Made by a program: the position numbers and the translations under genes
Assembly: GCF_036507355.1 (NCBI RefSeq)
Contig: NZ_AP027877.1
Length of the DNA: 64,000 nt
Reading direction: 5' to 3' (one strand)
Origin: Escherichia coli
GTDB taxonomy: Bacteria; Pseudomonadota; Gammaproteobacteria; Enterobacterales; Enterobacteriaceae
In this document: positions 50,323-56,143 of the stretch, in pieces
Layout: the number at the start of each line of letters is the position of its first letter
Position numbering within the stretch: position 1 is the first letter of the stretch
The notes under the pieces: generated by a model
Told to the model about the DNA's origin: nothing
The model's database searches: none
What the model saw: the letters and a program-made list of their open reading frames with translations, nothing else

Positions 50323-50485
50323 TTGTGAGTATCTCACGTTCTCAGTGTGCTGGGCAAAAAGACATCGCAAAATCTGGAGCAGGCACGCAAAACAGAATTG
50401 AAAGTTGCGGGGAAGAAAAATGCCGCTCTGTTTGAGTGGGCGGCATTTGTGAAGGCTGAAAAGTAAGAATTGGCGTTACGAGTTA

Positions 50486-50502
50486 TTCAATGTTCTGAAT
50501 CT
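50486..50502. repeat. attR-like direct repeat (tcaatgttctgaatctg) of the integrative element
   Basis: 16 of 17 bases identical to 58622..58638 at the other end of the integrase-containing block. Confidence 0.7.
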
Positions 50503-50647
50503 GAATATTGAATTGTGGGTTATATGTATTGATATTTAAATGATTTTTGTTTTTCTGGTTTTGCTTGTGTACACGTAGGGGTACATGGATTTACAGGGAT
50601 TACAATTTTTATTGTGTGATTTATGACCAATTGTAATTTTGTGTAAG

Positions 50648-50929
50648 TCACGCCGTGATCTTCATTAAAACATTATCAACAAAAACCCATTCGGGGTGAG
50701 AGGTGGGCGCTGGCATTTTTGTTTTACGTTCGCGCCGTGGATCTGCGATTTCAAAGGCTGGCGTCATAAATCTGAAAGTCATTGCTTCCGCATAAGCCTG
50801 GCTGAATCCATAACGACGCAGCTCATGAATTAACGCCTCATCATCCAGATCCAGCGCGTAAACCTCTTCAGCAATAGCGGCGGCAATCTGTAGGCGGGTG
50901 CTGTTGGGCAAGCGGTTCACATTCAGCAT
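50648..50929 (-). CDS. Hypothetical protein (cargo of integrative element)
   Basis: ORF 50648..50941; second ATG (MLNVNRLPNST) has a GGAG RBS; no recognisable domain. Confidence 0.45.
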   Translation of the reverse strand: MLNVNRLPNSTRLQIAAAIAEEVYALDLDDEALIHELRRYGFSQAYAEAMTFRFMTPAFEIADPRRERKTKMPAPTSHPEWVFVDNVLMKITA

Positions 50930-50944
50930 GACAGACTCCATCAG

Positions 50945-50975
50945 GTCAAAAGAAACCGCCTTTCGGCGGCGCTTG
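50945..50975 (-). terminator. Putative rho-independent terminator downstream of the 134-aa/62-aa gene pair
   Basis: On the minus strand: stem GCCGCCG-AAA-GGCGG followed by TTTCTTTTG. Confidence 0.45.
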
Positions 50976-51048
50976 GCAGTGAGGGAAGGTTACGGGCAGA
51001 TAAGCATCAGGTAGCAGTACAGCATCACACAGAGCGCATATGCCTCAG

Positions 51049-51237
51049 TCATGATTTCCCCGCATAGAAGTTCTGGTTAAATAGCTTCTGACTCATCCCC
51101 GTACTATCCGCTTTGCCACCAGAATAAAAAGCCTTGTTAAAGTCAGATTGACTGCTACCACTGAAGGAAGTGCCAGTTTTGCCCTCTCGCGCTTCACGCG
51201 CTTTTCTCAATGCCTCGATTACGGATGCTTTACTCAT
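51049..51237 (-). CDS. Hypothetical 62-aa Ser/Gly-rich protein, translationally coupled to the upstream gene
   Basis: Start ATG overlaps the stop of the 134-aa ORF (ATGA); internal FNKAFYSGG / FNQNFYAGK repeats. Confidence 0.5.
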   Translation of the reverse strand: MSKASVIEALRKAREAREGKTGTSFSGSSQSDFNKAFYSGGKADSTGMSQKLFNQNFYAGKS

Positions 51238-51638
51238 CGTGCAAACCCTCGTGTAATACTGGTGTAACCTCGACCGGCTGCTTTGCTCAGTTCATTCAGG
51301 CCATTGGTCACAACCTTCGATTCCCAACCGATAACCCCATTAATAGAGCGCGGCAAAGGGAAGTTCCCGTCCCTGCTCCATTCCTTCAATTTGGCAGTGG
51401 TGAGTGCTTTGCCATATTGGCGCTGATATCTCACACAAACATCATCAGGGCTTACCAGACCCACTTTGCTGAGGCCCAACGGCGAGTGAGAGTATTCGAT
51501 TTGCTTTACATACCAACCATCACCAACGGCGTACAGACCGGATGGATGGCGCTTACACTCATCAGCTTGGCGGCGTTGTTCTGCTGCTTGCTTTTGTTCA
51601 ATCAAAATTGTTTCTAACTCAGTCATTGGTGTCACCAT
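51234..51638 (-). CDS. Hypothetical 134-aa protein, first gene of a coupled two-gene module
   Basis: ORF with no recognisable domain; operator-like repeats directly upstream. Confidence 0.5.
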   Translation of the reverse strand: MVTPMTELETILIEQKQAAEQRRQADECKRHPSGLYAVGDGWYVKQIEYSHSPLGLSKVGLVSPDDVCVRYQRQYGKALTTAKLKEWSRDGNFPLPRSINGVIGWESKVVTNGLNELSKAAGRGYTSITRGFAR

Positions 51639-51643
51639 TAAAA

Positions 51644-51694
51644 TGTACTAGCGTGAGGGTACATTATACCAACCGTACTAGCTTGCTGGTACAA
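51644..51694. promoter_or_regulatory. Two 19-bp operator-like repeats (GTACTAGC-N6-GGTACA) upstream of the coupled gene pair
   Basis: tgtactagcgtgagggtaca and cgtactagcttgctggtaca, about 30 bp centre to centre; each contains inverted GTAC half-sites. Confidence 0.45.
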
Positions 51695-52041
51695 TATTCA
51701 CACCAAATAAGTGATTGTTTGGCACACCATCAAAGCGCAGCAGTAAGGAGCGCCTCGGCACTGGGAACAGTGTTCGGGGTTTTCTTTTAGGGCCAGCAGA
51801 GATGTAAGGTAAATCGTGGTGTAGGTGATATCAGATGAATCGGCGATAACCCGAAAACGGTTAGCAAATGTCAGTAGCTGATAAGGTATGAAATAGTAAG
51901 CAAGCGAACCATTCGTAGGGGTAATGTCAGGGTAACGTAATGGTGATATCAGGGTTATCTTAGGGAAGAGGTTAGGTTGGGGTCAGCAAAATGGTAGGGC
52001 ATTATGAGCCTACATTCTTCTTACCCCAAGATGCGGGGGAA

Positions 52042-52497
52042 TTATTTGTTGAGGAACTCACTGTTTTCTAAGCATTTGTATTTGATGTAATCGACCGCTG
52101 TCGGAGTGGTCACAGTAGCAAATTCCTCAAAGACTTTTTTCTTTTCAGTATCGACTATTGTTTTAAGCTCTTCTTTGAATTTCTTTTCTTGTCCCTCCTT
52201 CCACTCCGTGGCAATAAATAGGCATGATTTCCCCTTCTGACTAGCAATTGGATCTAATTGTGAAAGCGCCATTTCAGCTCTCTTGTAAGCCTCTTCAAAT
52301 GATACCTCTCCACCATTACGCGAAACAATTTCAACAAGCTGATTAGCTAATTTGCTCTTTTGTTGTTCTGCCAATCTCCCGGACATTTCAGCCAATGCTC
52401 CGGCATGTACAGTGGCAGTAGCCAAGAGTGTAAGTGTGATAATAGCTATACTTTTCAATTTCTTGTCCTTATTTGTTGTTATGTGAACATATCCCAT
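52042..52497 (-). CDS. Hypothetical secreted protein with Sec signal peptide
   Basis: 151-aa ORF; KKLKSIAIITLTLLATATVHA signal-like segment, Lys/Glu-rich mature part; ATG start. Confidence 0.55.
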   Translation of the reverse strand: MGYVHITTNKDKKLKSIAIITLTLLATATVHAGALAEMSGRLAEQQKSKLANQLVEIVSRNGGEVSFEEAYKRAEMALSQLDPIASQKGKSCLFIATEWKEGQEKKFKEELKTIVDTEKKKVFEEFATVTTPTAVDYIKYKCLENSEFLNK

Positions 52498-52556
52498 ATC
52501 TGATTATCTCAAAACCTACATCATTTGGTATGTTTTTCAGGTTTATATATTTTGCT

Positions 52557-52666
52557 TGTCCCATCTGTCCCGTTGTCCCATAGATTTTATATATATTGTA
52601 TTTCATATGGTTAGCTTGTTTTTTTATGGGACAAGAATGGGACAAAGCGGGACAGGTTTTTGTCCC
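52557..52666. repeat. Iteron module 1: three direct TGTCCC repeats, AT-rich spacer, three inverted GGGACA repeats (plus one more TGTCCC); candidate replication origin
   Basis: Hexamers at 52557, 52566, 52574 (TGTCCC) and 52628, 52639, 52649 (GGGACA), 52661 (TGTCCC); immediately downstream of the helicase gene. Confidence 0.6.
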
Positions 52667-52758
52667 ATTGAAGTTTTTTGTTTGAAACACATACAAATTT
52701 GGTTGGTGTAGGTGGGCTGGTCGCAAAAAAACACCCGCACAGTGGCGGGCATTGGTTC

Positions 52759-54465
52759 TCAATCTTCGAGGCTGTCACGATGGATTATGTAACATCTGAC
52801 GCGACCCAAACCGGGCAGATATCGACGATCTGGTTTGGTGATACCCTTCGCCTGTAAAACGCTGGCAGCTCGTCTGGCATCAAGTCCGGCAAAAATCACT
52901 TTCCAGCCTTCAACCGGGATAATGTACTCGTCATCTTTAATAAACCCAACTCGCGCCGTCGGTATCTCATCTGGTTTATTAGCGTCCTGAAAACGCGCCC
53001 CGTCACGCACTATGGTTTGTCTGATACGCTCGACGATCTCATTATCTTCATGGCTTTCCGTACCTCCTCTACGCTCAATCCATGCGGTAAAGCAGACTTT
53101 CGCCGCTTCTGTCGCAGTTCCCGGACTCCAACCCGTTATCTCAGAAGACAGTTCGCCAGCATAGGCCGCTATGGCGAACTTCTCAGCAACACGCCCGATC
53201 TGACCGGAAGGGTCTTCAGCTACAGAATTAAGAAAGGCCGATTTAAAATCGCGCCAGCCCTCCTTAATGGTGTCGTAATTGATAGTCAGGTGATCAAGCC
53301 ATGCGTTAAACGCTGTACCGTGATTTTCTCGTACTGCCTTGTCCAGACGGTCAGCAAACAAAGCGCCGTTTGCCTCTCCGTGAATCGTGTCGAAACAGGC
53401 AAATTCGCAGTTATCAGCAGGTATGTTAATCACTCGCATTTCCTGCCCGGCATATGTACTTTTCCGAACCGAATCAGCATGGGATTTGAGATCAATTTCA
53501 CCATTGGATAATAGCGCCAAACACCATTGCTGAATCTCTTTGGCTGTTCCGTTTTTGGTGCTTCGTTGCTTGCCTTTCCCATTCGGAAGCATGTACGCGA
53601 TTTCCCCGGCTTTGCTTGCGTCTACTTGTGCGATTTCATCAAGGCACAGAAGGCCGTCATTATGGCGTGCTGCGATACCTTCCAGCCCGTTATCTGTCGC
53701 ACGCCATGAGCGAATATATTCTTTGGGGTCGGAAATAACAGAAGCGGCAACCGTCATTGACCGGGATTTGCCTGAAGATGATGCCCCTACATAATGGAAG
53801 CAGAATCCATCAACTCCCAGCATGGTGAGCATAGGGGACAGGAACGCAGTAGATACCGCCAGAATCAGACGACTATTACCAACGCACAACGCCGCCACTT
53901 CATCGCGCCATGTCGCCAGGGTGCCGCAGGATGGCTCTGGCTTTACTCGGGCATTAACCTGATAGACAACCATATCTTTATCAATTGGGTTAAATGTCCG
54001 CACCGGGGTCACGTATACGGCAGGTTTAAACCAACCGCAGCGAGTAACGCAGGTTAACCGGCTTTGGTGGGATTGCCCTTTGAGATAACGGATGAACGCC
54101 TTCTCATCCCAGATACGCAGGCCGCCGTTAACCAGAATGCTAATGGCTTCAGCTCCTCCATTTGCGTAAAGTGAAGTCGCAGGCATCGCCCATTTCTTTG
54201 GCATCCCGTCACGGTCACACCATGACAGAAGTTTGCCCCACGACTCGTTATCCTTGTCTCTGGTTTCCGCAGTGACCTCAATAACATCAGATATACAGAC
54301 GGGTGCCGGATTGGGGTTTTTCTCCGTTGGTGCTCTGTAGAAGTAAACGCCAGCATCCCCGCGTTCCCTGTCGTACTCCCGATGTACCCAGTAAAACGGC
54401 GGCAGCTTTTCGGCTGGCGGGTTGTCTTTGTGGACTGATAAATCAATCACGTTGTTCGTGCTCAT
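52759..54465 (-). CDS. DUF927-type P-loop helicase (replicative helicase of P4 alpha / D5 type)
   Basis: Walker A-like GASSSGKS; start ATG (MSTNNVIDL) overlaps the primase stop (ATGA); original ORF 52759..54480. Confidence 0.7.
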   Translation of the reverse strand: MSTNNVIDLSVHKDNPPAEKLPPFYWVHREYDRERGDAGVYFYRAPTEKNPNPAPVCISDVIEVTAETRDKDNESWGKLLSWCDRDGMPKKWAMPATSLYANGGAEAISILVNGGLRIWDEKAFIRYLKGQSHQSRLTCVTRCGWFKPAVYVTPVRTFNPIDKDMVVYQVNARVKPEPSCGTLATWRDEVAALCVGNSRLILAVSTAFLSPMLTMLGVDGFCFHYVGASSSGKSRSMTVAASVISDPKEYIRSWRATDNGLEGIAARHNDGLLCLDEIAQVDASKAGEIAYMLPNGKGKQRSTKNGTAKEIQQWCLALLSNGEIDLKSHADSVRKSTYAGQEMRVINIPADNCEFACFDTIHGEANGALFADRLDKAVRENHGTAFNAWLDHLTINYDTIKEGWRDFKSAFLNSVAEDPSGQIGRVAEKFAIAAYAGELSSEITGWSPGTATEAAKVCFTAWIERRGGTESHEDNEIVERIRQTIVRDGARFQDANKPDEIPTARVGFIKDDEYIIPVEGWKVIFAGLDARRAASVLQAKGITKPDRRYLPGLGRVRCYIIHRDSLED

Positions 54466-55331
54466 GCCACTGCCTCCCATTTCTTGACCAGTTCATTTTT
54501 GTGATCGTTCCAGTCGCCATGTCTGGACGGGATTAGCAGCTCGCAACGGTAGCGACTTGCCGCATCAATGGCTTTAGTTACTCCCGGGTTGCCATCTGTA
54601 TTCGCATCATTATCGGCGGCAATGATGATGCGGGCGCGTGGAAATTCACTGCGCACACTCTCAGATACCTCTCGCAGGTTTCCGGCAGTAAAGGCGACAC
54701 AGACCGGGCAGCCCGTTACTTCTCGAACGGTGGCGGCGGTGGCATAGCCTTCAGCGATGAAAATGGTTTTGTCATTGACGACTAACCCGCCCAGCCAATA
54801 GCGTCCACCTTTCAATAGTGCGCCAGATTTAAAGCGCTTTGTGCCGTCCGGCATAATGTACTGAATGGACTGTACACTTCCGTACTGATCATGGATTGGA
54901 ATCAGTAACCAGTCACCAGATTGATAAATGCCATGCGCCCCAACACCTTTGCGCAATAGGTAAGGGTGATTATCACTGGCAGGAACTGCGCTACTAATCT
55001 TGGCTCTACATTCGGCAGCGGCGGCAACCTCAGCTTTACGCTGTATCGCTCCAATTGCCCGGCGTGCTTCCATCATCACGCGCTTACGTTCAATGCTGTT
55101 GACCTGTACACCATCGAGAAAGTGACACGCGGTTATGCCAGTTTTCCAGCTACCAAAAGCACAGCCCGCGCCATCAGGGAACGGGTAAGCCCAGCCATTA
55201 AGCGAGCCAGGTTTATCGCCCTCGATACGAAAGCGGGCAACGGTGCCGGGGATTAATTCCGGCAGTTCGCAAGGTATTACGCCAGCCTCGCGCATGGTGT
55301 CAGACAGGGATTGTCTTTGATGTGTAGTCAT
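54462..55331 (-). CDS. Toprim-domain DNA primase (P4 alpha N-terminal-like)
   Basis: ORF 54462..55388; ATG at 55331 (MTTHQRQSL) has an AGGAAA RBS; toprim-like acidic motif IIAADNDANTDGNPG. Confidence 0.65.
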   Translation of the reverse strand: MTTHQRQSLSDTMREAGVIPCELPELIPGTVARFRIEGDKPGSLNGWAYPFPDGAGCAFGSWKTGITACHFLDGVQVNSIERKRVMMEARRAIGAIQRKAEVAAAAECRAKISSAVPASDNHPYLLRKGVGAHGIYQSGDWLLIPIHDQYGSVQSIQYIMPDGTKRFKSGALLKGGRYWLGGLVVNDKTIFIAEGYATAATVREVTGCPVCVAFTAGNLREVSESVRSEFPRARIIIAADNDANTDGNPGVTKAIDAASRYRCELLIPSRHGDWNDHKNELVKKWEAVA

Positions 55332-55398
55332 ATATACTTTTCCTGTTACTGTGCTGGCGGGTCTGTCGCCAAACTTCACCGCCAGCAAGATTTAAAAG

Positions 55399-55860
55399 TT
55401 ACTCAGTATGATCAGCGGCATCCTTTGGGGTGCCGTTTTGCTTTATCCGGTCATTAATTTCCTCCAGCAAGTCTTCAGCCTTAACCAATTCTCTGATTGC
55501 CTTTGCTGTCCGCGCTGCCTCTGCTTCAGCTTTGTCGGCTGATTTTTTGGCTAACTGTTCGCGCCTTTCGGCTCTGGCTTGAGCATCCAACTCCCAATCG
55601 CATGAAAGGTGGCGGCCATCTAGATACCTGCTTACGATAACGCCTCTTTCATCCGTATCCTCATGAATGAACCACCAGCCATGCTTCTCGTTCATTAATT
55701 GCTGCAATGGTGAGCGATAGTGTTTACCTGCTATTTGAAGTAATTCGTCTTCACAAACAGGGCCATCAACCAGCGCGCGCCAGATTCGATATGCCTTTGT
55801 GCCTGGCTTAGGGATAGTGTGCAACGGCGCAGTAATCAGGATTTTCTCCCAGTTCTTCAT
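55399..55860 (-). CDS. Hypothetical protein translationally coupled to alpA
   Basis: Start ATG (MKNWEKILITAPL) overlaps the alpA stop (ATGA); charged C-terminal helix. Confidence 0.5.
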   Translation of the reverse strand: MKNWEKILITAPLHTIPKPGTKAYRIWRALVDGPVCEDELLQIAGKHYRSPLQQLMNEKHGWWFIHEDTDERGVIVSRYLDGRHLSCDWELDAQARAERREQLAKKSADKAEAEAARTAKAIRELVKAEDLLEEINDRIKQNGTPKDAADHTE

Positions 55861-56030
55861 TTTTTGGCCTCCAGCCATGAGTTGATTTCTGTTGAAGACC
55901 ATGCTGTAACGCGTTCAGAAAGTTTTATGGGTTTTGGTATCTTCCCGGTTCTTGCCCAGCGCCAAAGAGAAGAAACGCTAATTCCCAGTTGGTTAGCCAG
56001 GTCTTTAGGGCGTAAATATTGCGTTTTCAT
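55857..56030 (-). CDS. alpA: AlpA-family phage transcriptional regulator / excisionase-like HTH protein
   Basis: 57-aa product MKTQYLRPKDLANQLGISVSSLWRWARTGKIPKPIKL... typical of AlpA. Confidence 0.8.
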   Translation of the reverse strand: MKTQYLRPKDLANQLGISVSSLWRWARTGKIPKPIKLSERVTAWSSTEINSWLEAKK

Positions 56031-56143
56031 TTGGTATACCTCGCTCAACGCACTGCCACTCAGTGCTACGACAGCAAAGATAAAGGCATCCAGTGGCAGA
56101 TATAATGCGCAGCAAAGTAGGTCTTCACTTTCAAAGTAGGTCT

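What the first reader, a model, noticed from the sequence alone, without database searches (positions are those of the whole stretch)
50648..52497. Cargo end of the element: coupled 134-aa/62-aa gene pair, secreted 151-aa protein and 93-aa protein with no recognisable function
At the attR-proximal end, where satellites usually carry accessory or defence cargo, four co-oriented ORFs show no motif I can assign. The 134-aa and 62-aa genes overlap by ATGA (51234..51237), indicating a stoichiometric two-component unit such as a toxin-antitoxin or small abortive-infection module. The 62-aa product is Ser/Gly-rich with an internal repeat (FNKAFYSGG / FNQNFYAGK). The 151-aa protein has a Sec-type signal peptide. 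This is the strongest candidate in the window for an undescribed system.
Basis: inference. Interest (0 to 1): 0.65.

Follow-up and report, generated by a model that had tools for sequence, protein, structure and literature searches.

The report
Conserved satellite operon facing a small RNA

Summary
The four ORFs, the ATGA overlap, the twin FNxxFYxG motif and the signal peptide are all real. They lie at the int-distal end of an 8.1-kb PICI-type island inserted at the 3' end of yicC.

The "cargo" reading holds only for the 151-aa gene. It occupies a variable slot between the replication origin and the rest. That slot is empty in some islands and elsewhere holds a homologue plus a TM2 membrane-protein gene.

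The 134/62/97-aa genes are backbone. They persist when integrase, insertion site and replicase are swapped, and the 134/68-aa pair also sits on a 13-kb ParA plasmid. All three are under purifying selection.

New anatomy found here:
- The 134-aa protein carries an AlpA/excisionase-class winged helix-turn-helix.
- A conserved 20-codon hydrophobic micro-ORF is ATGA-coupled after the 62-aa gene.
- An extended -10 promoter is bracketed by GTAC palindromes.
- A divergent ~88-nt candidate sRNA (5' hairpin, invariant single-stranded stretch, terminator) is partly complementary to the operon's first start region.

No toxin, defence, terminase or Rpp homology was found. My best reading is an sRNA-gated DNA-binding switch for helper exploitation. 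Toxin-antitoxin and packaging readings remain open. Function is unproven.

The parts
50463..50503 (.). int-distal att repeat of the island; its partner is at 58598-58638, overlapping the 3' end of yicC
   Evidence: Direct repeat family D1, 41 nt, 73% identity with a shared core ..TCAATRTTCTGAATCTG. The island is flanked by dinD and yicC as in annotated genomes.
50568..50585 (.). GTAC-N8-GTAC doublet in the att arm (TGTACCCCTACGTGTACA)
   Evidence: Co-oriented copies lie near both ends of yicC-type islands (L002 2373 and 11073; L005; L009). The motif class is enriched in the window: 8 matches against 1.05 expected, reached by 0 of 100 shuffles.
50648..50941 (-). 97-aa (93-aa) orphan gene, last gene before att; conserved helical N-terminal half, variable linker, conserved C-terminus PEWVFVDNVLMKITA
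   Evidence: pN/pS is 0.20-0.28. No family or PDB hit. It starts directly after a terminator, so it needs read-through.
50955..50970 (-). Intrinsic terminator (GCCGCCGAAAGGCGGT + TTCTTTT) ending the 134-62-20 operon
   Evidence: The sequence is nearly invariant across lineages, more so than the flanking coding DNA.
50990..51052 (-). 20-codon hydrophobic micro-ORF MTEAYALCVMLYCYLMLICP, overlapping the 62-aa stop by ATGA
   Evidence: Seen directly in the sequence. It is exactly 20 codons with the ATGA junction in four diverged lineages: MSEANAFCVLLYCLLMLIRP, MIGTFALCALCFCWLMALRP and MIGTFAFCALCFCWLMALRP. In-frame pN/pS is 0.25-0.53, against about 0.8-1.7 in the other frames. It is broken in L014 and absent from L007/L011/L017.
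51049..51237 (-). 62-aa protein: basic N-terminal helix, Ser/Gly-rich linker of variable length, two F-N-x-x-F-Y-[AS]-G motifs
   Evidence: pN/pS is 0.13-0.30. No Pfam, PHROG, PADLOC or NCBIfam hit.
51234..51638 (-). 134-aa (130-aa) protein with an AlpA/excisionase-class winged helix-turn-helix (about residues 58-105), an N-terminal helix plus beta-hairpin, a C-terminal helix and a conserved tail GRG[FY]TSI
   Evidence: hhalign of its family against the islands' own AlpA proteins gives probability 85.6%, E 5.6e-6, residues 78-112. The negative control gives 0.5%. The AF2 model shows strand-helix-helix-strand at 60-103 with pLDDT 72-82 there and 60 overall. The family is extremely narrow.
51644..51695 (.). 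Back-to-back promoters: - strand TGGTATAAT (51671..51663) for the operon and + strand TGGTACAAT (51687..51695) for the sRNA, bracketed by four GTAC half-sites (51644-51663 and 51675-51693)
   Evidence: Read; motif positions. The same layout occurs in Citrobacter (L002) and Enterobacter (L013) islands. Function is inferred.
51700..51788 (+). Candidate ~88-nt sRNA: 5' hairpin, single-stranded invariant CCAUCAAAGCGCAG (51727-51740), intrinsic terminator (about 51745-51779) with a U-run (51780-51788)
   Evidence: Present beside every 134-aa homologue found. The same three-part fold appears in five sequence types with different stem sequences; z = -2.7, -2.7, -1.3, -5.1, -4.3. No Rfam family matches. 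The ends are predicted, not mapped.
52042..52497 (-). 151-aa (138-aa) exported all-helical orphan protein; the only true cargo-slot gene
   Evidence: It lies in the variable slot. It is 50% identical to the 146-aa partner of a TM2-domain gene in other islands, E 3e-36, and no TM2 remnant is present here. AF2 gives pLDDT 86.8 and pTM 0.79, all helices. No structural relatives outside its own family. GC is 0.40.
52552..52668 (.). Replication origin: two sets of GGGACA iterons flanking an AT-rich stretch, just 3' of the DUF927 helicase gene
   Evidence: Sequence. The organisation matches the Gram-negative PICI ori description in PMC6092414. It marks the upstream border of the cargo slot.

Best explanation
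The segment holds two different things.

(1) The 151-aa gene is accessory cargo. It encodes a Sec-exported helical periplasmic protein of an orphan fold. In other islands it is one half of a swap-in cassette with a TM2 membrane protein, which is missing here.

(2) The 134/62/20/97-aa genes, with a divergent sRNA gene, form the conserved signature module of a rare family of PICI-type satellites and a related plasmid. I read this module as a tightly gated switch for helper exploitation.

Proposed sequence of events:
- In the resting island the sRNA is made from its own extended -10 promoter.
- The sRNA pairs across the first start codon and Shine-Dalgarno region of the 134-aa gene.
- Because the 62-aa and 20-aa ORFs are ATGA-coupled to it, blocking the first start would silence all three.
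- A protein bound to the GTAC palindromes that bracket both promoters sets the transcriptional balance between sRNA and operon.
- On induction the operon wins.
- The 134-aa AlpA/excisionase-class winged-helix protein, probably in complex with the 62-aa protein, then binds specific DNA on the helper or the island and redirects helper late functions.

What is shown: conservation and backbone status, the winged-helix relationship, the coupling, the promoters, terminators and RNA fold, and the partial complementarity. What is inferred: expression of the sRNA, its target, who binds the operators, and everything about the helper.
For: Backbone status:
- The trio region occurs in 36 of 5426 complete E. 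coli genomes, always in single copy and on the chromosome. The 151-aa gene is in only 4.
- The trio is kept with an empty slot, with alternative cargo, with four replicase types and three integration sites, and as a pair on a plasmid.
- pN/pS is 0.13-0.42.

DNA binding:
- hhalign against AlpA gives 85.6%, E 5.6e-6, against a control of 0.5%.

sRNA:
- It is present at every locus, with a -10 box 6-8 nt before the 5' hairpin.
- The architecture is the same although both stems differ in sequence.
- The terminator points along the + strand, with its U-run after the stem.

Complementarity to the first start region:
- 9-11 contiguous pairs in L002, L006 and L013, matched by at most 1.5% of background windows.
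- 10 of 11 pairs in the window.
- It is the best of the 11 island start regions in the window (-16.8 kcal/mol).

Helper link:
- In about half of the lineages the module directly follows a DUF5681 gene. In phages that gene is the first gene, next to the large terminase, and is annotated as small terminase in Burkholderia phages.
Against: - No experiment exists, and no RNA data are available for the sRNA.
- Complementarity to the start region is only 7 bp in the commonest E. coli type and weak in the plasmid type.
- A whole-island duplex scan finds stronger sites elsewhere.
- The 3' half of the invariant sRNA stretch has no partner.
- The GTAC operators are replaced by an unrelated palindrome in L006/L023, although the protein there is about 85% identical to L002's. 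The 134-aa protein may therefore not be the operator binder.
- No helper is known, and no cos or pac similarity to any phage record was found.
- The AF2 model of the 134-aa protein is poor (pLDDT 60) and finds no fold match.
- No Pfam HTH model reaches significance.
Confidence: 0.4

Rival explanations
1. Toxin-antitoxin or addiction (or abortive-infection) module, in a type-I-like or hybrid form. The 20-aa hydrophobic peptide, or the 62-aa protein, is the toxin. The sRNA is the antitoxin. It blocks the first start site and, through the ATGA coupling chain, everything downstream, as Sok does to hok through mok (own knowledge). The 134-aa winged-helix protein autoregulates at the GTAC operators like a type II antitoxin.
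For: - A divergent sRNA with complementarity to the start region.
- A chain of ATGA-coupled ORFs ending in a conserved tiny hydrophobic peptide under purifying selection.
- Palindromic operators over the promoter.
- The first gene is DNA-binding.
- The pair lies next to parA on a small plasmid and at the end of mobile islands.
- The families are orphan and narrow, as is typical of such modules.
Against: - The module is backbone, not accessory.
- There is no similarity to any toxin, antitoxin or defence model.
- The hydrophobic ORF is missing from the plasmid/L007 form and broken in L014.
- The 134- and 62-aa proteins are too conserved to be mere leader ORFs.
- Their alleles reassort between lineages.
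- The 62-aa protein is half low-complexity with length variation.
Confidence: 0.2
2. Packaging-specificity module that works like Rpp. The 134-aa protein uses a Nu1/excisionase-type winged helix plus a C-terminal helix. It either binds the helper's small terminase or binds the island's own packaging site. The 62-aa protein serves as an adaptor, so that helper capsids take up island DNA.
For: - Its position downstream of the ori is where Gram-negative PICIs keep packaging and interference genes (PMC6092414, PMC6739421).
- It is adjacent to a small-terminase-like DUF5681 gene in several lineages.
- Its size (134 aa) is close to that of RppA/RppC (144/153 aa).
- A winged helix followed by a helix is predicted.
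- hhalign lays the RppA N-terminal HTH on the same segment, though not significantly.
Against: - No significant similarity to RppA (probability 1.0%) or to any PDB chain, RppC included.
- No lambda cosN within 2 mismatches in the module, and no P2-type cos.
- No DNA similarity to any phage record.
- Rpp-type genes are not known to be guarded by an sRNA.
- The DNA-binding domain is central, not N-terminal.
Confidence: 0.2
3. Recombination directionality factor. The 134-aa excisionase-class protein binds the GTAC doublets in the att arms to drive excision, and regulates its own promoter through the similar sites there.
For: - It is related to the excisionase/AlpA class.
- GTAC doublets lie about 65-100 bp from the att core at both ends of yicC islands, and similar sites sit at its promoter.
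- It lies next to the int-distal arm, where lambda Xis acts (own knowledge).
Against: - Every island already has a canonical AlpA next to int.
- The pair persists on a ParA plasmid with a different recombinase, and in L007 without int.
- The fis-site island L013 has the promoter GTAC quartet but no att-arm doublets.
- L006 has neither, yet keeps the protein.
Confidence: 0.07

Closest known systems
Gram-negative phage-inducible chromosomal islands (for example EcCICFT073; PMC6092414, PMC6739421)
   Same: - The gene order is int - regulator - alpA - primase/helicase - ori (two iteron sets around an AT-rich stretch) - small late genes - att.
- Everything is transcribed in one direction.
- The island is 8.1 kb, has no structural or lysis genes, and sits in a housekeeping gene (yicC) reported as a PICI site.
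   Different: - There are no capsid, decoration, PerC or Rpp genes.
- The end module shares no similarity with that of EcCICFT073 (RppA; 93-aa end gene).
- The helper is unknown and no cos site was recognised.
- The module carries its own promoter and a divergent sRNA, which is not described for PICIs in the papers read.
AlpA / Vis / Xis-type winged-helix regulators (Pfam HTH_17, Phage_AlpA)
   Same: The 134-aa protein has the recognition helix, the G-x-FP-x-P turn and the wing with a conserved W. These align to the islands' own AlpA proteins.
   Different: - It is twice as long, with an N-terminal helix and hairpin and a C-terminal helix and tail.
- It has an insertion before the recognition helix.
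- It does not reach any Pfam or NCBIfam threshold.
- It is a second such protein in an island that already has AlpA.
- The 'PrtN family' name on one Citrobacter homologue could not be reproduced.
Antisense-RNA immunity systems of phages and satellites (P4 CI RNA, P1/P7 c4, P22 sar; own knowledge)
   Same: A small structured RNA encoded beside the operon it would silence, in a mobile element whose expression must stay off until induction.
   Different: - No Rfam match, including the C4 family.
- The RNA is divergently transcribed rather than processed from the leader or overlapping the target.
- The proposed action is at a start site, not premature termination.
- The target is unverified.
Type I toxin-antitoxin loci with divergent sRNAs or coupled reading frames (tisB/istR-1, shoB/ohsC, hok/mok/sok; own knowledge)
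   Same: A divergent sRNA with a short stretch complementary to the target start region, translational coupling that passes repression downstream, and a tiny hydrophobic peptide.
   Different: - Two conserved, evidently functional proteins (134 and 62 aa) precede the peptide.
- The peptide is dispensable in one lineage.
- The module is core to the element.
- No toxicity data exist.
Rpp (redirecting phage packaging) proteins of E. coli PICIs (PMC6739421)
   Same: A small protein with a terminase/excisionase-type winged helix plus a helical C-terminus, encoded near the att-distal end of a satellite.
   Different: No detectable homology, a different domain order, and no adjacent cos site.

Membership tests
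Gram-negative PICI (island as a whole) | int, alpA and primase/replicase genes, co-oriented, with no phage structural or lysis genes, size about 8-20 kb | tested here: met
   PHROG integrase (E 1e-71), excisionase/AlpA (E 1.6e-9), primase (E 1e-52) and primase-helicase (E 4e-72). All ORFs are on the - strand. The att repeats are 8.1 kb apart.
Gram-negative PICI (island as a whole) | ori immediately 3' of the replicase gene, with two iteron sets flanking an AT-rich region | tested here: met
   GGGACA iterons at 52552-52668 on both sides of an AT-rich stretch; criterion taken from PMC6092414. Replication function was not tested.
Gram-negative PICI (island as a whole) | Helper-phage-dependent induction, packaging and high-frequency transfer | not testable with these tools
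   No helper was identified, and there is no cos or pac similarity to phage records.
AlpA/excisionase winged-helix family (HTH_17 / Phage_AlpA), for the 134-aa protein | Profile-level similarity over the recognition helix, GxFPxP turn and wing | tested here: met
   hhalign A1 against A2: probability 85.6%, E 5.6e-6, residues 78-112; unrelated control 0.5%.
AlpA/excisionase winged-helix family (HTH_17 / Phage_AlpA), for the 134-aa protein | Match to the Pfam/NCBIfam family models at their thresholds | tested here: not met
   No Pfam hit even at E<=10 for the protein or any of 16 homologues. No NCBIfam hit. I therefore describe it as related in class, not as a family member.
PrtN pyocin-activator family, for the 134-aa protein | Match to the PrtN model | tested here: not met
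   Only a source-given name on one homologue (P0015). It was not reproduced by Pfam or NCBIfam scans of that protein.
Rpp packaging-redirection proteins | Sequence or profile similarity to RppA/RppC | tested here: not met
   The PDB sequence search (the RppC structures reported in PMC6739421 should be in that copy) gives nothing at E<=10. hhalign against RppA of CFT073 gives probability 1.0%.
Rpp packaging-redirection proteins | Island cos site (helper cosN/cosQ with its own cosB) nearby; binding to helper TerS | tested here: inconclusive
   No lambda cosN within 2 mismatches in the module, and no P2-type cos. Other cos types could not be screened. Binding is not testable here.
Type II toxin-antitoxin | Adjacent co-transcribed small genes, one a DNA-binding antitoxin | tested here: met
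   ATGA overlap, a winged helix in gene 1, and palindromes over the promoter. Autoregulation is untested.
Type II toxin-antitoxin | Partner with a recognisable toxin fold or family; cognate co-evolving pair; accessory distribution | tested here: not met
   No toxin or defence family hit for the 62-aa protein. Alleles reassort between lineages. The module is backbone.
Type I toxin-antitoxin | Small hydrophobic peptide gene plus an sRNA complementary to its mRNA | tested here: inconclusive
   A 20-aa hydrophobic ORF is conserved in four lineages with in-frame pN/pS of 0.25-0.53, but it is absent or broken in others. The candidate sRNA is supported by structure and conservation. Its complementarity is to the first gene's start region and varies from 7 to 11 bp. 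Toxicity is not testable.
Known anti-phage defence systems (PADLOC-DB 2.0) | Any component model hit | tested here: not met
   No hits for the four proteins or for alternative slot genes, including the TM2 protein (one weak E1-E2 hit at E 0.007 on the 146-aa homologue, not credible).
Known RNA families (Rfam 15) | Covariance-model match for the candidate sRNA | tested here: not met
   No match in 50400-58700 at E<=1 apart from a spurious miRNA hit on the iterons.

The most novel reading that the evidence does not exclude
The sRNA, the 134-aa winged-helix protein, the 62-aa twin-motif protein and the 20-aa membrane micro-peptide together form a previously undescribed, family-defining control device of a new lineage of small satellites. 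These satellites exist both as chromosomal islands and as a ParA plasmid. In this reading an antisense RNA holds back a translationally chained operon, and release of that operon both commandeers the helper through DNA binding and perturbs the host membrane. The result would be a hybrid between a satellite hijack switch and a type I toxin system.
Probability: 0.2. Interest if true: 0.7.

Novelty: new variant of a known kind. Interest (0 to 1): 0.5.

Why it matters
Phage satellites are recognised by a few shared genes (int, alpA, primase). How most of them exploit their helpers is unknown, because the genes downstream of the origin are orphans. This analysis separates a real swap-in slot from a conserved module in one rare family. 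It shows that the module survives exchange of every other part of the element, and it gives the module a concrete anatomy that can be tested: a DNA-binding protein, a coupled partner, a micro-ORF, opposed promoters and a candidate sRNA. RNA-level control is known for P4, but I did not find it described for PICI-type islands in the papers read. If it holds up, it adds a regulatory layer to satellite biology and a handle for finding the unknown helper. It also warns against treating the att-proximal end of a satellite as cargo or defence without comparing relatives.

Tried and rejected
- Family and homology searches of all four proteins (PHROGs, PADLOC, NCBIfam, Pfam, PDB sequences) gave nothing credible.
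- Deep searches showed that the families are tiny rather than giving remote leads. The 134-aa profile found 5 representatives among 1.84 billion, of which only the top three look like family members. It found 2 loci in 100,044 species genomes and 2 in IMG/VR.
- tblastn against phages found nothing for the 134-, 97- and 151-aa proteins. Against plasmids it found one hit for the 134-aa protein and none for the 151-aa protein.
- The AF2 model of the 134-aa protein was too weak (pLDDT 60), and Foldseek against the PDB was uninformative.
- The 151-aa model was confident, but Foldseek against the PDB and AFDB50 found only its own family. A DUF1311/lysozyme-inhibitor-like hit at E 3.1 was discarded.
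- The Rpp hypothesis was tested against RppA taken from the CFT073 genome and was not supported. The end gene of EcCICFT073 is unrelated to the 97-aa gene.
- cos/pac mimicry found nothing: blastn of the 2.3-kb segment against 50,697 phage records, lambda and P2 cos patterns, and local blastn against the e14/HK97-like and lambda-like prophages fetched.
- A TM2 gene remnant in the 400-nt spacer was looked for and not found.
- RNAalifold on the MAFFT alignment of the sRNA failed to capture the 5' hairpin, because stem lengths differ between types. I relied instead on independent folds.
- A whole-island duplex scan did not single out the start region as the sRNA target.
- A metagenome scan with the 19-nt sRNA core returned one true relative and six chance matches.
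- A literature search by protein accession and by DUF5681 or yicC found no description of the module.
Full report
**Setting.** The window is an E. coli chromosome segment: tRNA-Sec at 31701, then spoT, rpoZ, gmk, ligB, yicG and dinD on one side, and yicC and rph on the other. An 8.1-kb island lies between dinD and yicC. It is bounded by imperfect direct repeats at 50463-50503 and 58598-58638; the latter overlaps the 3' end of yicC. All island genes are on the - strand. In order they are:
- int (57182..58441);
- a 283-aa protein with an N-terminal MerR/HTH_17-type HTH;
- an AlpA-type regulator, followed by a small orphan gene;
- a Toprim primase and a DUF927 helicase.

Next come a terminator and two sets of GGGACA iterons around an AT-rich stretch at 52552-52668. 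This is the origin layout described for Gram-negative PICIs (PMC6092414). The finding covers what follows, up to the int-distal att repeat. yicC is mentioned as a site of reference PICIs in a preprint (10.1101/2022.07.18.500453). By architecture the element is therefore a PICI-type satellite. Induction by a helper cannot be tested here.

**Observation.**
- PGAP starts the 151-aa ORF at a TTG, giving 138 aa, and the 134-aa ORF at the second ATG, giving 130 aa.
- The signal peptide is convincing. Relatives carry a different signal sequence fused to the same mature N-terminus, GALAEM.
- The twin F-N-x-x-F-Y-[AS]-G motif of the 62-aa protein is kept in all length variants.
- The genes are real: homologues exist, and pN/pS is 0.13-0.42 between lineages.

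**Cargo or core.** Comparison with relatives splits the segment in two. Only 4 of 5426 complete E. coli genomes carry the whole 2.4 kb, whereas 36 carry the 134/62/97-aa region. The slot between the origin and the 134-aa gene varies:
- it is empty in strain F95;
- it holds a TM2-domain gene plus a 146-aa gene in J6 and many others;
- it holds a 205-aa gene plus a DUF5681 gene and a tiny ORF in Citrobacter.

The window's 151-aa protein is a 50%-identical allele of the 146-aa TM2 partner (E 3e-36), and no remnant of a TM2 gene remains here. More distant homologues always sit next to a TM2 gene in the same slot.

The trio, by contrast, is kept under every other exchange:
- when the replicase is DUF5906/zinc-ribbon primase, YfjI or D5_N/DUF5906;
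- when the integrase and site change (ubiV-yhbW, fis-adjacent).

The 134/68-aa pair alone occurs on a circular 13.3-kb ParA plasmid of Shigella flexneri. The same block abuts the tail genes of an e14/HK97-like prophage in E. coli C10 and in one IMG/VR contig. So the 151-aa gene is cargo and the trio is backbone. The family is rare. The 134-aa profile finds five representatives among 1.84 billion proteins. It finds two loci among 100,044 species genomes, in Shimwellia and Kluyvera, and two in IMG/VR.

**The 134-aa protein.** No family library recognises it. A profile-profile comparison of its family with the AlpA proteins of the same islands aligns residues 78-112 to the recognition helix, the G-x-FP-x-P turn and the wing. 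The probability is 85.6% and E is 5.6e-6; an unrelated control gives 0.5%. The AlphaFold model is weak overall (pLDDT 60). It does place a strand-helix-helix-strand unit at residues 60-103 with pLDDT 72-82, preceded by a long helix and a hairpin and followed by a helix. Foldseek on this model was uninformative. I therefore call it an AlpA/excisionase-class winged-helix DNA-binding protein, but not a member of the Pfam families. One Citrobacter homologue is named 'PrtN family' by its source, and I could not reproduce that label. RppA, taken from the CFT073 genome as the 144-aa gene at the end of EcCICFT073, is not detectably related (probability 1.0%).

**New parts.** Reading the - strand showed that the 62-aa stop overlaps, again by ATGA, a 20-codon ORF, MTEAYALCVMLYCYLMLICP. 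An intrinsic terminator follows it.
- The micro-ORF keeps exactly 20 codons and the junction in four diverged lineages.
- Its in-frame pN/pS is 0.25-0.53, against about 0.8-1.7 in the other frames.
- It is broken in one metagenomic contig and absent from the plasmid form.
- The 97-aa gene begins right after the terminator, with no room for a promoter.

Upstream, the operon has an extended -10 promoter, TGGTATAAT (51671..51663). Eighteen bases away on the other strand lies a second one, TGGTACAAT (51687..51695). Four GTAC half-sites bracket the two.

The + strand promoter leads into a 5' hairpin, then a single-stranded stretch containing the invariant CCAUCAA(A)GCGCAG, then a strong hairpin with a U-run (about 51700-51788). 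This unit is found beside every 134-aa homologue. A -10 box lies 6-8 nt before the hairpin in each type. Five sequence types with different stems fold into the same three-part shape, with z-scores of -2.7, -2.7, -1.3, -5.1 and -4.3. No Rfam family matches. I regard it as a good sRNA candidate, with its ends unmapped.

**What the sRNA might do.** The 5' half of the invariant stretch is complementary to UUUU(G/A)AUGGUG. That sequence covers the first AUG of the 134-aa ORF and the Shine-Dalgarno of the second.
- The match is 9-11 contiguous pairs in the Citrobacter, ET915 and Enterobacter islands. At most 1.5% of background windows do as well.
- It is 10 of 11 pairs in the window.
- It is only 7 pairs in the commonest E. 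coli type, and poor in the plasmid type.
- Among the window's 11 island start regions it is the best site, at -16.8 kcal/mol, ahead of the 97-aa start at -15.3.
- A scan of all island positions finds stronger sites elsewhere.

Targeting of the operon's start is therefore plausible but unproven. Because the next two ORFs are ATGA-coupled, a block at the first start would pass down the chain.

**Operators.** The GTAC quartet also occurs in the fis-site island, which has a different integrase (L013). In L006/L023 it is replaced by ATATCAAT-N11-ATTGATAT, although the protein there is about 85% identical to the Citrobacter one. Similar GTAC doublets lie in both att arms of yicC islands. Who binds them remains open.

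**Link to packaging.** In several lineages a DUF5681 gene with one or two tiny ORFs lies directly upstream. In phage genomes its homologues are the first gene, next to the large terminase, and are annotated as small terminase in two Burkholderia phages. This puts the module in the region where satellites keep helper-exploitation genes. No cos or pac similarity to any phage was found.

**The 151-aa protein.** The AlphaFold model is confident (pLDDT 86.8, pTM 0.79) and is an all-helical bundle after the signal peptide. Two invariant cysteines are present. Foldseek finds only its own family in AFDB50 and nothing in the PDB. No defence model matches it or its TM2 partner. An envelope-level role, for example blocking phage entry, is a reasonable guess for an exported protein paired with a membrane protein, but nothing here tests it.

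**Interpretation.**
- Best reading (about 0.4): an sRNA-gated, translationally chained operon. Its winged-helix product, with its 62-aa partner, acts on DNA to exploit the helper.
- Toxin-antitoxin reading (about 0.2): this gains support from the sRNA and the micro-peptide. It loses support from the backbone status, the lack of any toxin similarity, and the reassortment of 134- and 62-aa alleles.
- Packaging-redirection reading (about 0.2): this fits the position and the terminase neighbour, but has no sequence or cos support.
- Excision-factor reading (below 0.1): this is unlikely, because AlpA is always present and the pair persists without the integrase.

Assembly quality needs a caveat. 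The window has single-base deletions in ligB and dinD relative to a near-identical strain. The four ORFs nevertheless agree in length with the annotated relatives.

Noticed in passing
window 48139; 49752; 50043: Single-base deletions in short homopolymers, relative to strain MARGA_3, split ligB and dinD into two ORFs each. They are either pseudogenes or assembly indel errors, so other frameshifts in this window should be treated with caution.
   Followed up: partly
window 57049-57159: A second, inverted set of GGGACA iterons lies between int and the 283-aa gene, 4.4 kb from the ori iterons at 52552-52668. It showed up as a spurious miRNA hit in Rfam. This resembles the ori/crr pair of P4 (own knowledge).
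   Followed up: no
window 56113-56150: A perfect 19-nt tandem duplication (CAAAGTAGGTCTTCACTTT, twice) lies just upstream of alpA. It is a likely operator of the alpA promoter.
   Followed up: no
window 56144-56995: The 283-aa protein next to int has an N-terminal MerR/HTH_17-type HTH (E 2.9e-4). With AlpA and the 134-aa protein, the island therefore encodes three winged-helix-class proteins. Its length differs between relatives (221-283 aa).
   Followed up: partly
window 50568-50585; L002 2373 and 11073; L005 8167 and 14356; L009 3342 and 11072: Co-oriented GTAC-N8-GTAC doublets lie in both att arms of yicC-type islands. They are analogous to the doubled arm motif reported for helper-embedded PICIs (PMC10111431). 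A triple GTAC cluster also lies inside the toprim gene (54858-54885).
   Followed up: partly
L017 (NZ_CP055032.1, whole record); L007 9850-14230; L011 6231-10608: A 13.3-kb circular Shigella 'plasmid' carries VapE, Toprim, a Xer-like recombinase, ParA, Arc, tape-measure-like and tail-fibre-like fragments, DUF5681, the sRNA and the 130/68-aa pair. The same block directly follows the tail-assembly gene of an e14/HK97-like prophage in E. coli C10 and in an IMG/VR contig. It may be a helper-embedded or plasmid-form satellite.
   Followed up: partly
phage record MT836812.1 (hit H62), 459-881: An 8.66-kb unannotated 'Bacteriophage sp.' record from human faeces encodes the best phage-database homologue of the DUF5681 small-terminase-like protein. 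Its size suggests a packaged satellite rather than a phage.
   Followed up: no
window 51790-52041: The 250-nt non-coding spacer between the 151-aa gene and the sRNA terminator contains two copies of CTGATATCACC and several TTACCC-type repeats. It has no counterpart in other lineages, and its origin and role are unknown.
   Followed up: no
window 50945-50995 and equivalents in L002, L006, L008, L009: The DNA spanning the terminator and the start of the 97-aa gene (CTGCCAAGCGCCGCCGAAAGGCGGTTTCTTTTGACCTGATGGAG) is more conserved than the neighbouring coding sequence. This hints at a regulatory RNA or DNA element controlling read-through into the 97-aa gene.
   Followed up: no
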